64,000 bases of DNA. Source: Malacoraja senta. Its lineage: Eukaryota. The stretch's first letter is position 1, and each line of letters starts with the position of its first letter. Where the stretch lies: assembly GCA_038087875.1 (NCBI GenBank), contig CM075988.1, positions 6,884,001 to 6,948,000 on the forward strand, read 5' to 3'. The notes beneath the pieces are model-generated. The model was given only the letters and a program-made list of their open reading frames with translations, did not search any database and was not told where the DNA came from. The position numbers and the translations under genes are program-made. Below, in pieces: positions 1,880-59,229 of the stretch.

Positions 1880-2400
1880 ACTGCCGCGTGGATGTGTTTT
1901 CCTGGTCAGTTTGAAACGAGGAAATGCCCCCTTGAGTGGTGTGGTGTGGTGAGGTGGGGGAGAGGCCGGGGCATGGGTGCAGGGAACCGGCCGGGAGCGA
2001 TGAGACTGGGCCGATTACTCCAGAGAGTCAGGCAGGCGGATGAGGAAGTAGCGAGAGTTAGGGCTGGCTCCCGCCGCCTCTCTCTCTCTCTCTCTCTCTC
2101 TCTCTCTATCTGTCTCTGTGTGTGTATCCGGCTCCGGATCTTGGCCGGGGAAGTAAGCGGATGGGGTGACTCCCATTATCACCCCCTCCACCACCACCAC
2201 CACCCTCCCCGAGTGTCGATGGGAAGCAGCGGCACGGGGCAGACCCCAGCGGCGGGGCTGGCGAGCGAACTCAGGCCGCCACTGGAGGCGTGGAGCTGCG
2301 GCTACTGCGGGAAGGACTCCTTCTGTGCTCAGGGTGAGTGGCTCAGTATGTGTGTGTGAGAGAGAGAGAGAGAGTGCGGGGCGAGGAGGGGGGAACCCTG
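1880..2400 (+). promoter_or_regulatory. CpG/GC-rich putative promoter and 5' UTR of the ATE1-like gene
   Basis: Locally CpG-rich non-TE sequence around exon 1, with GGAAGT (ETS-like) motifs at ~2044 and ~2149 and a (CT)n tract at ~2078-2107. Confidence 0.5.
2219..2333 (+). CDS. ATE1-like: ATE1-like gene, coding exon 1 (MGSSGTGQTPAAGLASELRPPLEAWSCGYCGKDSFCAQ-G)
   Basis: ATG at 2219 in a GC/CpG-rich region. CGYC motif as in ATE1 exon 1 (human YRCGYCKNESGSRSNG). Ends in phase 1 at a consensus donor CAGG|GTGAGT, the same phase as ATE1 exon 1. Confidence 0.8.
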
Positions 2401-5400
2401 CGAGATAATACTCCACAGGTCAATGCAACAATGTTTCTCACCCCAGATGAAAGAGACACCAAATGTATCCCCCCCCCCATTGGAAATCTAAAGCCACAAC
2501 TGAAAGTGGAAGATATCTTGAACTATTGGCGTTGATTTCCCAATTTGAGTTGAGTTTCTTTCTGCCAACATCACTCTGGTTGCACATCTTACGTGTTGCC
2601 AGCGCTTGAGACTTGTTGATCTCAGCAGCTCTCGGCAGGCGATTGTGTTACATGCTCATTTCAAATCTGTTACACCGTCTGTCCCCAGTCGATGGTCTCC
2701 AGTGGCTTTCGAGAGATAGACTTGAGTCCGAGCAATGGCCGGAGTTTTCCCCTCTAAAATGCCTGGGATATTTGCATTGCTTATTTATTTATTTTGCATC
2801 CCGGTTTCCATGCGAACGTGATTTTTTTTTTTGTCTGGAAAGTAAACGCGAACAGCTGTTTGCAGATTCGATCCTTCAGACCCTATGTTTTCTGCTGCAA
2901 TAGATTGGTCGATTAAGGTGTCACTGAGCGATGCTGTAAAAAGAAGTAACACGCTCTGTGTTTGTTGTTGTCCCGGGCCGTGTTTGCATTGTTGCAAACC
3001 TCATTCTGCTTATCGAAGACAAACACAAAGTGCTGGAGTAACTCAGCGGGTCAGGCAGGCGAAAAAGGGTAGGTGCGGTTTGGGTCGAGTCCCTTCTTCT
3101 GAAGAAACGTCACCTATTTCTTTTTCTCCAGAGATGCTGCCTGACCCGCTGAGTTACTACAGCATTTTGTGTCTGTCTTCGGTGTAAACCAGCATCTGCA
3201 GTCCCGTTCTACTCATTCTGCTCATCATTGGCTTCCAGCATTGTTGGGTCGCAAACCTCACTGTGGAAGGAGGTGGCTGGGTGGCCAAGGGAGTGAAACC
3301 CAGTGATCATCTGTCAGTCTCCTTTCTCTCCCGTTACTCTTGCCACAAGTTAATTAGTCAAGGGAGCAGAATTAGGCCATCAAGTCTACTGTGCCATTCA
3401 ATCATGGCTGATCAATCTTTCCCTCTCAACCTGATTGTCCTGCCTTTTCCCAATAACCAATAACAATAATTCTTGGGTGCCCAGAATTTCTATAGACTGG
3501 GCCTTTGGTTGCGCTCGTACCTCTGTTTGTGCACGATTATGGCTACCGAGTATATGGTTATTATACCTCGTTTATGGCACAGTGCCGTGGCGTTGGAGTT
3601 GCTGCCTTACAGTGCCAGAGATCCAGGTTTGATCCTGACAAAAGGTGCTGCCTGTTTGGAGTTTGTACATTCTGGCCAGCTGAGCTGGAACTTTGGAAAT
3701 GGCACCAAAACTGGCAATTGTTGCATATGGACTGGGCCGTTTCTCTGCATTCTGTACATAATCGGAGATTGTACTTATGTCTGGCAATAATCTTGCTGAT
3801 CTGTATGCGAAGAAAGAATTTCACTGTACCTTGGTACAAGTGATAATAAAGAACCATTGAGAACATGCAAACTTCATATAGGCAGCACCCAAGGTCAGGA
3901 CTGAACCCGGGGCTGCTGGAGTGTAAGGTGCTAGTTCTACTGCACCACTGTACCATCCCAATAGCCGTACAGGTTTCTTGAAGAAGGGTCGGGACCCAAA
4001 ACGTCGCCTATCCATGTTCTCCAGTGGTGCTGTCTGACCCTCTGAGTTACTCCAGTTGTTGGGTTGTGGACGTCACTGGCAGAGCTGCCATTTACTTATT
4101 ATCTGGCTGTGCTGCTTTGAGAGGGTGACACAGGCCTTCTCCTGCCTGGTGGTTTGATCGAAAATACACTCCAGCAGATACTGGAACAGCACCTCCAAAA
4201 CCATGACCTCCACCATTGAGGCACCATGTACATGGGCACACCACTAGAGTCATAGAGTGATACAGTGTGGAAACAGGCCCTTTGGCCCAACTTGCACACA
4301 CCGGCCAACATGTCCCAGCTACACTCTTCCCATCTGCCTGTGTTTGGTCCATATCCCTCCAAACTTGCCCTGCAAGATCCATTCATGTCACACTCATGCA
4401 GTAATAGCTACTAAAGCGGTCTGTGCACCTCGGTTGCTCAGTAGAGAACTCAGTGGGTCAGGAGATTAATAGAGTCTTAATTGGTAAGGGTGTCAAACAT
4501 TATAATAACCAGGCAGGAGAATGGATTGAGATTAAAAAAATAGATTTTACTTTAGACTTTAGAGATACAGCGTGGAAACAGGCCCTTCAGTCCACCGAGT
4601 CCGCACTGACCAGCGGTCCCCATACACTAACAGTACCCTACTACACTAGGGATAATATACAATTTAACGAAGCCAATTAACCTACAAGCCTGTACGTCTT
4701 TGGAGTGTGGGAGGAAACAAGAGCACCCGGTGAAAACCCCTGCGGCAACAGGAAAAAAAGTACAAACTCCGTATGGACAGCACCCGTGGTCAGGAACAAA
4801 CCCAGTTGCTGACAGTAATCTACTGTGGTGCCACTGTGCTGCCCTATGCTATGATCAAATCGTGGACAGATTTGATGGGTTGAATAGTGTTAAAGAAAAC
4901 TTTAAACAACACCACAAAGATTGAGCTGGACAATCAAGACTTCATTTTGGAGCGTCAAATACAGTGATCACAGAACAAAGATTCATCTGTTCCCTTGTTA
5001 CCGAATTTCCCTTTGATGTGCACATTGTCCCTTTGATTTCCCTTTCCCGCGATCACTCGAGCCTTTTTACTCTTCACATGGTCCTACGACAATCATAGGT
5101 CAAGGACCTCAGGAAAAGACACCGATTAACAAATGCATTTCAATCGCATCTAGTGGCAAGATAGAAACCGCACCCAGTGACAGACAGACAGATGTCCTGT
5201 TACTGCTTAGATCTCATTTTATTGTAATTGTCATTTGTTCTTTCACAATGGCCTCATTCTGTGCCCGTGTCTTATGGTCTGCATAAAGTTCCCGACCCGA
5301 GACGTCGTCTGGCCAGTTCCCACCTCAGATGCTGCCTGACTCGCTGAGTTCCTCCAGCACCTTGTTTTTTGCTCAAGATTCTGGCAACTGCGATTTCTTG

Positions 5401-5731
5401 TATCTCAGTTGTTCAGTAGTTGGCACATTGCAATGTTATGATTTGCGTGTTGGTTTCAGAGCTTCAGGGATGTGCCAAAGCACGTCAGAGCAAGTGACCA
5501 CGGTTTGACATCAGACCATATTAAATTAAATGCGCCAGTCTGATTTTGCATGTTTCGGTTTTAAATTATAGGTTGGGTTAAGCAGCCAGAATCAAAGTTA
5601 TGGAGTTTGAAATCATGATCTATGGTGTATATAAAGAAAACAAGTCTTAGGATAATTTTCTTTAGAATATGAAGTTGTGGATTTTAAAGAAAATTCAAGT
5701 TTCCATCCTTAGCTTAGCATCTCTGAAACAG

Positions 5732-57433: not shown

Positions 57434-57554
57434 CTCTTCTACCAGCCAACAGAGCTGCTGTGCCCTGTCACTGGGCACTGGGTGTCCGTGGAACAATGCC
57501 TACCCAAGCTGGAGTTAAGCAAGTTTGCCCGGCTTTACGACGGCGAAGAGCCAG
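57434..57554 (+). CDS. ATE1-like: ATE1-like exon 11 (LFYQPTELLCPVTGHWVSVEQCLPKLELSKFARLYDGEEP)
   Basis: 121 nt, phase 0 to 1, borders tttttctttgtag / CAG|GTGGGT. Homologous to [40 protein letters not shown]. Confidence 0.93.
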
Positions 57555-58987
57555 GTGGGTATCAACTGCAACCAATCTATTATCTGCAGCCGTTGGAAAT
57601 CATAGAATATTAGATTCATAGTATGGTTACAACACTGGATGGCATGCTGGCGCAGTGTGAGAATTGCTGCCTTACAGCGCCAGAGACCTAGGTTGGATCC
57701 TGACTATGGGTGCTGTCTGTACGGAGTTTGCATGTCTTCCCCTTGACCACATGGGTTTCCTTCGGGTGCTCCGATTTCTTCCCACATTCCAAAGATGTGC
57801 AGGTCGGTAGGTTAATTGGCTTCTGTAAATTGTCCCTCTGCCATGACTCGGTGGGCCAAAGGGCCTGTTTCCACTCTATGTCTCTAAACTAATATAAACA
57901 CAGGAGGCCATTCAACCCATTGAAAAAAGTTGTGGATATAGTCCAGATCAATACGCAGACCTGCCTCCTAAACATCAAATCCATTTAAACGTGGAGACGC
58001 AGCCAACAGAATCAAAACCTGCTCATTCTCTCTTCTATCGTCTCGCATTGGGTGCAAAGCCAAAAGCTTGAAAGCATATACCACAAGATTTGGGAACAAC
58101 TTCCCCCACCTCTTATCAGCTGACTGAATGTTCCTCCCATATGATAGGGTCTAGTGCCAACCTTCCAGACCTTGGACCTTTTCTCTTGAAGGGAGGCACA
58201 GTGGTGCATCAGTTGAGCAGCTGCTTCAGAGCGCCAGCGTCCCGGGTTCGATCCTGGCTATGGGCATTGTCTGCACGGAGTTTGTACGTTCTCCCTGTTA
58301 CTATGCGGGTTTCTCCGGGTGCTCCCATTTCCTCCCATATTCCGAGGACGTGCAGGTTTGTAGGTGAATTGGCTTCTGTAAATTGTCCCCAGTGTGTGGT
58401 ATCACCCTCTATCCCTGTAACTGTGACCCTTCCTTCCATGAACAATTCTCATCAAACTTTTCTGCACCCTCTCTATTGCCTTCACAACCTTTTTATAAAG
58501 TGAGGACCAGAATTGAACTCTCTCACTGCAGAAGAAATCAGACAAGTGTTCAGCAGGACTTCCTTTACACACTGTGCCTTAATTATTGGTATTGCCATTG
58601 GCTTATTATGCACGTGTACAGGGATAAAGTGAAAAGTCTTTGTTTTGCATGCTAACGGACAAATTATATCATACATGAGTACATCTGGAGTGCAAGGCCA
58701 CCAACATGATCAAGGCCGAGTCTCACCGGAGCACCTGGAGAAAACCCATGTGGTTACAGGGAGAACGTGCAAACTCTGCACAGACAGCACCCATAGTCAG
58801 GATCGAACCCGGGTCTCTGGCGCTGTAAGGCAGCAACTCTACCGCTGCACCACCGTGCCACCTCTTATCCCAGTGAGATACAAGGAAGTTTTACCACAAA
58901 GTATCTGCCACAAACAGGCAAAAATCTGTCATCACTTCCCATAAAACTACATGGAGGAATATAATAACATCTGCCTTTTTGTTACAG

Positions 58988-59229
58988 CTGTTGATTGCGG
59001 CCTGTCCAACGAAGGCCTTTGGTTTCTGCGGAATTTCCGGGACACACTGAGCCCGTCTTCCTCGGCCTCGGTGCAGACGGAGGAAGCCATGCTCGTGGTA
59101 TCTCAGGAGGACCTGGTCTCCATCCACTCCTCTTCGCCCTCAGCCTGGTGGAAGCACCTGCCCTGCCTCGCCCGCCTGCTGAGCTGCTGCTGCCGAGGCA
59201 GCTGGTGCAGGAAGGAAGAGGAGAGCTGA
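58988..59229 (+). CDS. ATE1-like: ATE1-like terminal coding exon (AVDCGLSNEGLWFLRNFR...WWKHLPCLARLLSCCCRGSWCRKEEES*)
   Basis: Acceptor ctttttgttacag in the phase required by exon 11, GC-rich open frame to TGA at 59227-59229. Similarity to human exon 12 is weak (AVD..S.E, EEA). Confidence 0.7.

What the first reader, a model, noticed from the sequence alone, without database searches (positions are those of the whole stretch)
2219..59229. A divergent second ATE1-family arginyltransferase gene (candidate unrecognised vertebrate ATE1 paralog)
Seen: eight + strand exons with AG/GT borders whose translations align in order with ATE1; exons 7, 8, 10 and 11 are 129, 33, 100 and 121 nt. Known: ATE1 transfers Arg from Arg-tRNA to N-terminal Asp/Glu/oxidised Cys in the Arg/N-degron pathway, is highly conserved and is treated as single-copy in vertebrates. 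Inference: by eye only about half the residues in the conserved core match mammalian ATE1, far fewer than I expect for a chondrichthyan ortholog, while intron positions are preserved. That points to an old DNA-level duplicate, possibly an ohnolog from the vertebrate genome duplications kept in cartilaginous fish. It could be a second aminoacyl-transferase branch with different specificity.
Basis: partly seen in the sequence, partly recalled or inferred. Interest (0 to 1): 0.85.

Follow-up and report, generated by a model that had tools for sequence, protein, structure and literature searches.

The report
Second arginyltransferase gene in skates
This skate DNA carries a real, very old second copy of the arginyltransferase gene ATE1 that sharks, rays and chimaeras keep, although the copy in this draft assembly is incomplete and out of frame.

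Summary
The window has eight + strand exons with AG/GT borders (sizes 129, 33, 100 and 121 nt confirmed) that match 'arginyl-tRNA--protein transferase 1-like' (ATE1L) proteins.

NCBI's pipeline predicts ATE1L in 15 named cartilaginous-fish species. Eight of them also have canonical ATE1. The paralogs are 40-43% identical within a species. They lie on different chromosomes in 6 of 6 informative species.

ATE1L lies next to FEZ1 in 10 of 10 informative species and here. It is as conserved between species as ATE1. Skate relatives hold full-length spliced transcripts. I found no paper on it.

It keeps the metal-binding cysteines and the Arg-tRNA-side residues. In all sequences covering the site, it replaces the arginine that recognises acidic N-termini (yeast R80, human R56) with valine. 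It also has a cysteine-string tail. I infer changed acceptor specificity or localisation.

The ohnolog idea is not supported by synteny. The locus is 11q24-like, and no FGFR/TACC-block marker lies on its contig. The tree cannot decide the origin (AU p 0.377).

The window copy lacks the ATE_N exons, which would sit beside an N gap. Exon 9 is 2 nt short, giving a premature stop. I think this is probably an assembly fault. This assembly shows no canonical ATE1 locus.

The parts
2219..2333 (+). ATE1L exon 1: start codon and the CxxC half of the metal-binding site (…WSCGYCGK…). 115 coding nt, GT donor at 2334.
   Evidence: 100% identical over 39 residues to the Amblyraja radiata ATE1-like protein P0003. 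Donor checked.
38976..39175 (.). 200-N assembly gap in intron 1, 1.4 kb upstream of the next exon. It is the likely hiding place of the missing exons for ortholog residues 40-175 (the ATE_N core with the CC pair).
   Evidence: N run listed. Residues 40-175 were not found in the window or anywhere in G000. The neighbouring FEZ1 gene likewise lacks residues 153-232 beside another 200-N gap.
40645..40970 (+). ATE1L 'exon 6' (326 nt): the disordered linker region.
   Evidence: E 3.4e-58 and 89% identity to P0003 residues 175-291. AG/GT borders. No Pfam family. pLDDT is below 50 in the model.
45929..46057 (+). ATE1L exon 7 (129 nt, phase 0 at both ends). It carries Y298, Q299, H303 and D305 (human numbering). 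It is a single copy, closer to one of the two canonical alternative exons.
   Evidence: 60% identity to the first alternative exon 7 of skate canonical ATE1 and 43% to the second.
48933..48965 (+). ATE1L exon 8 (33 nt, YRRFFCSTPLL).
51525..51704 (+). ATE1L exon 9. It is 180 nt where the orthologs need 182. One base is missing in the G run at the acceptor (51524-51527) and one at about 51611-51613 (…GGACTG^TGGAC…). It encodes the ATE_C core in two different frames.
   Evidence: Two tblastn HSPs in different frames abut at 51613. ORFs. Pfam ATE_C scores 30 bits. As assembled, the frame stops at 51600.
53259..53358 (+). ATE1L exon 10 (100 nt): E387 and the …GPYVHSCVKVKYK motif with K415, Y418 and K419 (human numbering).
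   Evidence: 33 of 33 residues identical to the skate orthologs.
57434..57554 (+). ATE1L exon 11 (121 nt).
58988..59229 (+). ATE1L last coding exon, with the paralog-specific C-terminus that ends in a cysteine string (…WWKHLPCLARLLSCCCRGSWCRKEEES). Stop TGA at 59227-59229.
   Evidence: 99% identity to P0003 residues 473-552. No Pfam family. The tail is conserved in 14 of 15 ATE1-like sequences.

Best explanation
The window holds a skate's copy of ATE1L ('arginyl-tRNA--protein transferase 1-like').

What is shown:
- ATE1L is an intron-bearing paralog of ATE1 that arose within vertebrates, before chimaeras and elasmobranchs split.
- It lies head-to-head with FEZ1, on a different chromosome from ATE1.
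- It went through a long early burst of change. Since then it has evolved as slowly as ATE1 itself.
- It is transcribed and spliced in related skates.

What is inferred:
- The protein still folds as an ATE1-type GNAT transferase with its Zn/Fe-S cysteines.
- It still handles the 3' end of Arg-tRNA(Arg), because the donor-side residues are intact.
- It no longer picks Asp/Glu N-termini the way ATE1 does, because the essential pocket arginine is a fixed valine and three other pocket residues are fixed to new ones.
- Its conserved C-terminal cysteine string suggests S-acylation and membrane attachment.

So my best reading is a tRNA-dependent aminoacyl transferase with a changed acceptor range and/or place of action. 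I put this at about 0.35. The alternative of a non-catalytic binder is about 0.25.

The copy in this assembly cannot encode the protein as written: the ATE_N exons are missing and exon 9 is 2 nt short. I think this is an assembly fault (about 0.65-0.7), not decay.
For: Identity and paralogy:
- All 15 hits of the exon-9 peptide are cartilaginous-fish ATE1-like proteins, 90-97% identical.
- With P0003 as query, the first 15 rows are ATE1-like (71-100% identity). The list then drops to canonical ATE1 at 35-42%, including 14 cartilaginous-fish species.
- Leucoraja and Rhinoraja ATE1-like proteins sit in the P0003 cluster.
- Among 1.84 billion cluster representatives, ATE1L is one cluster (662 bits). 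The next hit is hagfish ATE1 at 322 bits.
- P0003 has both ATE_N (71 bits) and ATE_C (120 bits).

Tree (46 rows x 488 columns, LG+C20):
- The ATE1L clade has 100/100 support and a stem of 1.94 substitutions per site.
- It sits inside vertebrates; the outgroup split has 97/99 support.

Linkage:
- ATE1L and ATE1 lie on contigs of different length in 6 of 6 informative species.
- ATE1L and FEZ1 lie on contigs of the same length in 10 of 10 informative species.
- In this genome FEZ1 lies 43 kb upstream on the other strand.

Constraint and expression:
- Between-species identity is 79-90% for ATE1L against 71-89% for ATE1. ATE1L is higher in 13 of 15 species pairs.
- Six 552-residue cluster members sit on contigs of only 1,788-2,222 nt. 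The coding exons in this window span 57 kb, so those contigs must be spliced mRNA.

Residues:
- Kept: C23, C26, C71, C72, Y298, Q299, H303, D305, R317, F318, Y367, E387, K415 and K419 (human numbering), in every sequence that covers the site. Yeast H178 and Y303 are also kept.
- Changed and fixed: R56V in 13 of 13, Y369C in 15 of 15, F408P in 15 of 15, W38M/T in 13 of 13, Y21W in 13 of 13.
- Canonical ATE1 has R, Y, F/Y and W at these sites in 19-20 of 20 sequences.
- R56 aligns with K. lactis R80. R80E abolishes activity and R80K nearly does (PMC9351520, section 7, read).
- E387 and K419 form the arginine pocket (PMC11283454, section 9, read).

C-terminal tail: the cysteine string is present in 14 of 15 sequences.

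Assembly fault:
- FEZ1 also lacks internal exons beside a 200-N gap.
- Canonical ATE1, a convincing Nse4 gene and a third TACC gene are all missing from the assembly.
- The first missing base sits in a G run, and the second may be one T of a TT pair.
- The surviving exons differ from the nearest skate proteins at only 6 of about 409 residues.
Against: - No activity, localisation or acylation data exist. The functional reading rests only on residue conservation and two papers' mutagenesis of other species' enzymes.
- The human cryo-EM paper places R56 more than 10 Å from the substrate N-terminus and sees R56E as a folding defect. So the valine may say less about specificity than the yeast work suggests.
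- The C-terminal tail is low-confidence in the model (pLDDT 35-59).
- Transcripts were seen only as short contigs from relatives, not from this species. No RNA holder was listed for the window.
- For the window copy, two frame breaks fall within 90 nt of one exon, while about 1,900 nt of other checked coding sequence (the other ATE1L exons plus FEZ1) has none. That pattern is not what a uniform error rate gives.
Confidence: 0.7

Rival explanations
1. The gene is simply this species' ATE1 ortholog, evolving fast. There is only one ATE1-family gene.
For: In this assembly, a skate canonical ATE1 protein (P0027) finds nothing but the window's exons, at 50-67% identity. Pfam ATE_C hits only the window.
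Against: - Eight other cartilaginous-fish species, including three skates, have both genes.
- The window exons are 93-100% identical to their ATE1-like proteins and only 50-67% to their ATE1.
- The locus is next to FEZ1 and not next to TACC.
- The assembly also lacks a third TACC gene and a convincing NSMCE4 gene, which are ATE1's neighbours in human (recalled). That points to an unassembled block.
Confidence: 0.02
2. In this species ATE1L is a recently dead gene. The two 1-nt losses in exon 9 and the absence of the ATE_N exons are real.
For: - As assembled there is a premature stop at 51600, or in exon 10 with the alternative acceptor.
- The ATE_N exons are found nowhere in 1.94 Gb.
- No frame breaks were seen in about 1,900 nt of other coding sequence checked. 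So the base-level error rate is not obviously high.
Against: - The remaining exons are nearly unchanged, with 6 differences in about 409 residues against the nearest skate proteins. All splice sites are intact.
- The first missing base sits in a G run, and the second may be one T of a TT pair.
- The missing exons abut an N gap, and FEZ1 shows the same defect.
- Three related skates have intact 552-residue proteins.
Confidence: 0.3
3. Origin A: ATE1 and ATE1L are ohnologs from the vertebrate whole-genome duplications. ATE1L was kept only in cartilaginous fishes and lost in bony vertebrates.
For: - The best tree puts ATE1L as sister to all jawed-vertebrate ATE1, after the cyclostomes (supports 92/36 and 64/82).
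- The two genes are unlinked in 6 of 6 species, and intron positions are shared.
- No ATE1L-type sequence exists outside cartilaginous fishes in the exhaustive representative search, which fits loss elsewhere.
Against: - ATE1L lies in a block with FEZ1, a MEIS/PKNOX-type gene, DCPS and an APP-family gene. From recalled human maps, that block is 11q24-like.
- TACC, LETM, FAM53 and adducin genes cluster on C1:379-381 Mb and C15:13.4-14.3 Mb. None is on C12.
- By recall, 10q26 and 11q24 belong to different paralogy groups.
- The AU test does not reject ATE1L plus chondrichthyan ATE1 as one clade (lnL difference 0.20, p 0.377).
- The 1.94 stem invites long-branch artefacts.
Confidence: 0.25
4. Origin B: a small-scale, DNA-mediated duplication copied ATE1 to the FEZ1 region in the chondrichthyan stem (or slightly earlier). 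One copy then diverged rapidly.
For: - The synteny is of non-FGFR type.
- The gene is found only in cartilaginous fishes.
- The AU test allows ATE1L as sister to chondrichthyan ATE1.
- A weak Nse4_C-like ORF lies 338 kb away (21 bits, below the cut-off). If real, it could be a co-copied NSMCE4A neighbour.
Against: - The best tree does not place ATE1L with chondrichthyan ATE1.
- It needs a very large early rate burst: stem 1.94 against 0.22 for the canonical chondrichthyan stem.
- The Nse4 hit is below the family cut-off, and the second Nse4 domain was not found.
Confidence: 0.55
5. ATE1L is a pseudoenzyme. It binds Arg-tRNA, substrates or ATE1 partners but transfers nothing, and acts as a regulator or decoy.
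For: - It has lost the arginine whose charge is essential in the yeast enzyme.
- W38, a dimer-interface residue invariant in 31 of 31 other ATE1 sequences, is changed.
- F408P sits in a strand next to the active site.
Against: All donor-side and catalytic-neighbourhood residues tested by mutagenesis in the two papers (yeast Y173, H178, Y303; human E387, K419) are kept over more than 400 My (a recalled date), with overall conservation equal to ATE1. That is more than a mere binder usually needs.
Confidence: 0.25

Closest known systems
Canonical vertebrate ATE1 (arginyl-tRNA--protein transferase 1; human structure 8tzv/8uau)
   Same: - ATE_N plus ATE_C architecture with a long disordered linker.
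- CxxC and CC metal-binding cysteines.
- Arginine-pocket residues E387 and K419.
- H303, Y298, Y367, K415 and Y418.
- The 129-nt phase-0 exon 7 has the same borders.
- E 3.5e-97 to 8tzv.
   Different: - Only 40-43% identical to the same species' ATE1.
- A separate 100/100 clade, on a different chromosome, next to FEZ1.
- R56V, Y369C, F408P, W38M/T and Y21W are fixed.
- A single exon 7 instead of two alternative ones.
- The C-terminal 50-60 residues are replaced by a Ser-rich stretch and a cysteine string.

Plant ATE1/ATE2 pair (two arginyltransferase genes in Arabidopsis)
   Same: It is a precedent for two ATE genes in one genome. PMC9351520 states that plants have two genes while yeast and mammals have one (passage read).
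   Different: The plant pair arose independently. I did not compare plant sequences here. By recall, the plant paralogs are largely redundant arginyltransferases, whereas ATE1L has changed pocket residues.
Bacterial Bpt / Aat and FemX aminoacyl-tRNA transferases (GNAT-fold relatives)
   Same: They share the catalytic principle of transferring an aminoacyl group from tRNA to a protein or peptide amine. They show that this fold can change donor or acceptor specificity (PMC9351520, sections read).
   Different: ATE1L is not one of them. It branches inside vertebrate ATE1 and keeps the Arg-specific residues.

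Membership tests
ATE1 family (arginyl-tRNA--protein transferases, Pfam ATE_N + ATE_C) | ATE_C domain (PF04377) above the gathering score | tested here: met
   Ortholog P0003 scores 119.9 bits against a cut-off of 25. The window's exon 9 alone scores 30 bits and exon 10 scores 22.3 bits.
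ATE1 family (arginyl-tRNA--protein transferases, Pfam ATE_N + ATE_C) | ATE_N domain (PF04376) with the CxxC and CC metal-binding cysteines | tested here: inconclusive
   Met in the orthologs: 71.2 bits against a cut-off of 27, and C23, C26, C71 and C72 present in every sequence that covers them. In the window only the CxxC of exon 1 is present. The rest of ATE_N is missing from the window and the assembly.
ATE1 family (arginyl-tRNA--protein transferases, Pfam ATE_N + ATE_C) | Donor-side residues shown by mutagenesis: human E387 and K419; K. lactis Y173, H178 and Y303 | tested here: met
   All are kept in 14-15 of 15 ATE1-like sequences (the gaps are partial isoforms) and are encoded in window exons 7, 9 and 10. 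Mutagenesis was read.
ATE1 family (arginyl-tRNA--protein transferases, Pfam ATE_N + ATE_C) | Positively charged pocket arginine for acidic N-termini (K. lactis R80 = human R56) | tested here: not met
   It is valine in 13 of 13 ATE1-like sequences covering the site. It is arginine in 20 of 20 canonical vertebrate and 10 of 12 invertebrate sequences. The mapping to R80 comes from the 7wfx alignment. The neighbouring R57 is kept.
ATE1 family (arginyl-tRNA--protein transferases, Pfam ATE_N + ATE_C) | Arginyl transfer from Arg-tRNA to N-terminal Asp, Glu or oxidised Cys | not testable with these tools
   This needs a biochemical assay.
Ortholog of vertebrate ATE1 (the 10q26-type gene) | Groups with same-lineage ATE1 and is the only family member in the genome | tested here: not met
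   It forms a separate 100/100 clade. It coexists with ATE1 in 8 species and lies on a different contig in 6 of 6.
2R ohnolog pair | The two copies lie in paralogous chromosome blocks | tested here: not met
   0 of 4 FGFR/TACC-block families (TACC, LETM, FAM53, adducin) have a member on C12. Four 11q24-type markers do. The assignment of these families to human blocks is recalled, and only this one draft genome was examined.
2R ohnolog pair | The duplication node predates the split of cartilaginous and bony vertebrates | tested here: inconclusive
   The best tree agrees (92/36), but the AU test does not reject the alternative (p 0.377).
Processed pseudogene / retrocopy | Intronless copy | tested here: not met
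   There are eight exons spread over 57 kb with AG/GT borders.

The most novel reading that the evidence does not exclude
Cartilaginous fishes run a second branch of tRNA-dependent protein aminoacylation. In this reading ATE1L is an active, S-acylated, membrane-tethered transferase. It uses Arg-tRNA but modifies non-acidic N-termini or other acceptors. It would be an ancient vertebrate gene, possibly an ohnolog, that bony vertebrates lost. Arginylation biology inferred from yeast and mammals would then be incomplete for early vertebrates.
Probability: 0.15. Interest if true: 0.8.

Novelty: new variant of a known kind. Interest (0 to 1): 0.55.

Why it matters
ATE1 is described as encoded by a single gene in yeast and mammals (PMC9351520, passage). 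It is also called the only known arginylating enzyme of metazoans and fungi (PMC7779560, abstract in the listing).

Here is a second family member with these properties:
- It has been conserved for the whole history of cartilaginous fishes.
- Its donor side is intact.
- Its acceptor pocket is re-tooled.
- It has a new cysteine-string tail.

It is a natural experiment on what sets acceptor specificity in this fold, and a candidate for a new protein modification route. It is directly testable with recombinant protein and peptide libraries.

It also adds to the list of old vertebrate genes kept only in cartilaginous fishes. In my four literature searches I found no paper that mentions it. The gene so far exists only as automatic 'ATE1-like' database models.

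Tried and rejected
- **Reads.** The look-up of sequencing runs listed 24 runs but no RNA holder for window 50000-59500. This says nothing about expression. So the exon-9 frame breaks and splicing in this species stay unchecked.
- **Missing exons.** A sensitive tblastn of ortholog residues 31-185 against the window found nothing credible. Pfam ATE_N over the genome gave only noise (best E 0.37).
- **Neighbour hunt by Pfam.** I scanned 300 of the 580 unique ORFs of at least 60 residues in the 264 kb around the gene. These were the 150 longest, then the next 150 outside the window.
  - One search gave 3 FEZ exons, 2 Ig exons, 3 reverse-transcriptase fragments, and three weak hits (zf-C2H2, PRP38_assoc, Atrophin-1).
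  - One search gave one weak DcuC/Connexin hit.
- **Atlas lead.** The protein atlas suggested 'FEZ2a' for the neighbour. The sequence search overruled this: it is FEZ1, 100% identical to skate FEZ1. The Ig exon stayed unnamed (CEACAM/JAM-like leads only).
- **Other 11q24 or 2p22 markers.** EI24 was not found. STT3 lies on C19 and on a small contig. Striatin lies on C2 and on small contigs.
- **Nse4.** The only Nse4_C candidate in the genome lies 338 kb upstream but is below the cut-off. Nse4-Nse3_bdg gave nothing. I left this as an open lead.
- **Published paralogon tables.** The supplements of PMC8302630 hold no gene symbols and are cut, so they were of no use.
- **Weak extra hits.** Two weak hits of the ATE1-like protein on C15 and C1 are riddled with stops, and only one was reproduced locally. 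I do not count them as ATE1 genes.
- **Eel protein.** The eel protein P0168 grouped with lamprey in the FastTree run. In the careful tree it is an ordinary ray-finned-fish ATE1, not an ATE1L.
- **Earlier findings.** No earlier findings of this scan touch the locus.

Full report
**1. What is in the window**

The window is G000:C12:6884001-6948000 of a 1.94-Gb, 6,182-contig vertebrate assembly. A Pfam ATE_C search of the whole genome hit only two places, both in the window.

The exon-9 peptide found 15 proteins, all from cartilaginous fishes. Fourteen are named 'arginyl-tRNA--protein transferase 1-like' and one 'hypothetical protein'.

tblastn of three of these proteins, plus reading of the borders, gives eight + strand exons:
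- 2219-2333
- 40645-40970
- 45929-46057 (129 nt)
- 48933-48965 (33 nt)
- 51525-51704
- 53259-53358 (100 nt)
- 57434-57554 (121 nt)
- 58988-59229

All internal borders are AG/GT. Genome-wide E-values of the exon matches run from 3.4e-58 to 6.5e-10.

**2. Defects of this copy**

- Exon 9 matches the orthologs in two frames that abut at 51613. It is 180 nt where the orthologs need 182. One base is missing in the G run at the acceptor and one in …GGACTG^TGGAC….
- Spliced as assembled, the frame stops at 51600. With the AG at 51528-51529 as acceptor, it stops two codons into exon 10.
- Residues 40-175 of the orthologs, the core of ATE_N, are found neither in the window nor anywhere in the assembly. 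A 200-N gap lies 1.4 kb upstream of the next exon.
- The neighbouring FEZ1 gene shows the same defect. Its residues 153-232 are missing where another 200-N gap lies.
- The remaining ATE1L exons differ from the closest skate proteins at only 6 of about 409 residues.

I therefore rate 'assembly fault' at about 0.65-0.7 and 'real recent inactivation' at about 0.3.

The clustering of two breaks in one exon argues against a uniform error rate, because about 1,900 nt of other checked coding sequence is clean. It fits a local bad patch or a real lesion.

**3. It is a paralog, not the ortholog**

With the Amblyraja protein P0003 as query, 1,017 proteins scored E ≤ 1e-5 among 8,000 candidates, and 120 were listed.
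- Rows 1-15 are ATE1-like proteins of cartilaginous fishes, 71-100% identical.
- From row 16 on come canonical ATE1 proteins at 35-42%, including those of 14 cartilaginous-fish species.
- The P0003 cluster adds Leucoraja erinacea and Rhinoraja longicauda ATE1-like proteins.

So 15 named species have ATE1L, and 8 of them appear with both genes. Within a species the two proteins are 40.2-43.2% identical (6 species).

In an exhaustive HMMER pass over 1.84 billion cluster representatives, 3,413 proteins scored E ≤ 0.001. ATE1L is represented once (Callorhinchus, 662 bits). The next hit is hagfish ATE1 at 322 bits, so I see no ATE1L outside cartilaginous fishes.

**4. This assembly shows no canonical ATE1**

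A skate ATE1 protein finds only the window's exons, at 50-67% identity. The assembly also has only two TACC loci and no convincing Nse4 gene.

By recall, ATE1, NSMCE4A and TACC2 are adjacent in human. I read their joint absence as one unassembled block, not as biology, because three related skates have canonical ATE1 or ATE1L models of both kinds.

**5. Age and origin**

*Rows used for the tree.* I used 46 rows:
- 9 of the 15 ATE1-like sequences (six partial isoforms left out),
- 8 chondrichthyan and 10 bony-vertebrate ATE1,
- hagfish and lamprey,
- one eel protein,
- 16 of the 149 unnamed representatives as outgroups (five of them named: a moth, a shrimp, a coral and two unnamed).

*Result.* The careful IQ-TREE run (488 columns, LG+C20) gives:
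- ATE1L 100/100, with a stem of 1.94 substitutions per site;
- canonical chondrichthyan ATE1 100/100;
- outgroups split off at 97/99.

ATE1L joins at the node between jawed-vertebrate ATE1 (92/36) and cyclostomes plus outgroups (64/82). So the gene arose within vertebrates and before the chimaera/elasmobranch split.

*AU test.* The AU test does not reject ATE1L plus chondrichthyan ATE1 as one clade (lnL difference 0.20, p 0.377). The tree therefore cannot tell a jawed-vertebrate-stem duplication from a chondrichthyan-stem one.

*Gene structure.* Comparing skate ATE1 isoforms P0027 and P0037 shows that the canonical alternative exon is a 43-residue block. It begins after …HQLE and ends before Y(T/R)RF, exactly the borders and length of ATE1L exon 7. 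Together with the introns, this shows a DNA-level duplicate.

**6. Synteny**

*Immediate neighbours.*
- The upstream neighbour, head-to-head and 43 kb away, is FEZ1. It is 100% identical to Leucoraja and Amblyraja FEZ1 in its large last-but-three exon.
- An unnamed IgSF gene lies 26 kb downstream on the other strand.

*Contig length as a chromosome label.*
- ATE1L and FEZ1 share a contig in 10 of 10 informative species. In Mustelus, FEZ1 is on a 99.6-kb scaffold, which is uninformative.
- ATE1L and ATE1 are on different contigs in 6 of 6 informative species. In S. torazame, ATE1L is on a 190-kb scaffold, which is uninformative.

*Markers on C12.* C12 also carries the genome's only DcpS hit (3.13 Mb), an APP-family gene (1.37 Mb) and a MEIS/PKNOX-type gene (7.76 Mb). 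From recalled human maps this is an 11q24-like block.

*FGFR/TACC-block markers.* By contrast, TACC, LETM, FAM53 and adducin genes cluster at C1:379-381 Mb and C15:13.4-14.3 Mb. None is on C12.

I rate the ohnolog origin at about 0.25 and a small-scale duplication at about 0.55. The block assignments are recalled, and only this draft genome was examined.

**7. Constraint and expression**

- Between six elasmobranch species, ATE1L is 79.4-90.5% identical and ATE1 is 71.4-88.9%. ATE1L is the more conserved in 13 of 15 pairs. The divergence is old, and the gene is now under constraint at least as strong as ATE1's.
- Six members of the P0003 cluster are full 552-residue proteins on contigs of 1,788-2,222 nt. 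The coding exons span 57 kb here, so those contigs must be spliced transcripts. They differ from the Leucoraja protein at 1-5 residues and from the window at 6 or more. They therefore show expression in relatives, not in this species.

**8. How it probably works**

*Fold.* P0003 has ATE_N and ATE_C domains and matches human ATE1 8tzv at E 3.5e-97. An AlphaFold2 model built on 61 sequences has:
- a confident core (residues 20-110 and 262-470, pLDDT 76-98),
- a disordered linker (111-261),
- a low-confidence tail.

*Mapping published functional residues.* Sources are human PMC11283454 section 9 and K. lactis PMC9351520 sections 7 and 9. I mapped them onto 15 ATE1L, 20 canonical and 12 invertebrate sequences.

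Kept in every ATE1L sequence that covers the site:
- the four cysteines,
- human Y298, Q299, H303, D305, R317, F318, Y367 and K415,
- the arginine-pocket pair E387 and K419,
- yeast Y173, H178 and Y303.

Changed and fixed in ATE1L:
- R56V (13 of 13),
- Y369C (15 of 15),
- F408P (15 of 15),
- W38M/T (13 of 13),
- Y21W (13 of 13).

Canonical ATE1 is invariant or nearly so at these sites.

*The key change.* R56 aligns with K. lactis R80. Its positive charge is essential: R80E is dead and R80K is weak. That paper assigns it to recognition of acidic N-termini. The human paper instead sees R56 as structural.

*The tail.* The last exon gives a tail with no Pfam match. It ends in W-W-x-H-x-P-C-L-x-R-L-L-S-C-C-C…C in 14 of 15 sequences. 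I read this, by analogy and from recall only, as a likely S-acylation motif.

*Reading.* The donor chemistry is kept, and the acceptor choice and/or location is changed. Nothing here tests activity.

**9. Novelty**

Four full-text searches found no paper on a vertebrate ATE1 paralog. PMC9351520 states that one gene encodes the enzyme in yeast and mammals and two in plants. The gene is thus known to annotation pipelines but not to the field.

I class it as a new variant of a known kind, of moderate interest. The window itself adds a draft, defective copy.

Noticed in passing
G000:C12:6804651-6843422 (outside the window, 43 kb upstream, - strand): FEZ1 lies head-to-head with ATE1L. Exons for residues 1-152 and 233-397 are present, but residues 153-232 are missing where a 200-N gap lies (C12:6815519). 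FEZ1 and ATE1L share a contig in 10 of 10 informative cartilaginous-fish species.
   Followed up: yes
L038:806-1423 and 2772-3194 (G000:C12:6968806-6971194, - strand): Two exons of an IgSF gene (V-set plus Ig/I-set) lie 26 kb downstream of ATE1L. The atlas gives only CEACAM1-like or JAM2-like leads. The gene was not named.
   Followed up: partly
window 54339-55463 (- strand): A reverse-transcriptase (RVT_1, E 1.4e-17) ORF of 375 residues lies in the intron between exons 10 and 11. It is a LINE-type insertion. Two more RVT_1 fragments lie in the upstream flank (L028, L030).
   Followed up: no
G000:C12:6546341-6546436 (L046:1844-2023, - strand): This is the only Nse4_C candidate in the whole assembly (21 bits, cut-off 26; …NSFAESVVNFFPLSFL…). 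It lies 338 kb from ATE1L. NSMCE4A is ATE1's neighbour in human (recalled). It could be a co-duplicated relic, the real gene, or chance.
   Followed up: partly
G000:C15:12732344-12732547 (L019) and G000:C1:381459235-381459555 (L020): These are the only two non-window hits of the ATE1-like protein (E about 0.07, with 3-4 stops each). Each lies about 1.1 Mb from a TACC gene, inside the two TACC/LETM/FAM53/adducin clusters. The C15 match (31.5% over 73 residues) runs across an exon junction of the protein. It is unexplained and may be chance.
   Followed up: partly
whole assembly G000: Canonical ATE1, a third TACC gene, EI24 and a convincing NSMCE4 gene were not found. LETM1_RBD hits at C1:8.99 Mb and C15:14.31 Mb have identical scores on three exons, as if one region were assembled twice.
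   Followed up: no
window 9458-9671; 29243-29406; 24001-28000: There is a (CA)107 microsatellite and a 90-nt unit repeated 1.8 times. A 4-kb stretch has GC 0.52 and GC skew -0.29. All three lie in intron 1.
   Followed up: no
P0168 (Anguilla anguilla, 290 aa): A short, divergent eel ATE_C protein grouped with lamprey in FastTree. In the careful tree it sits with ray-finned-fish ATE1 (99/61). It is possibly a teleost duplicate or a fragment.
   Followed up: partly
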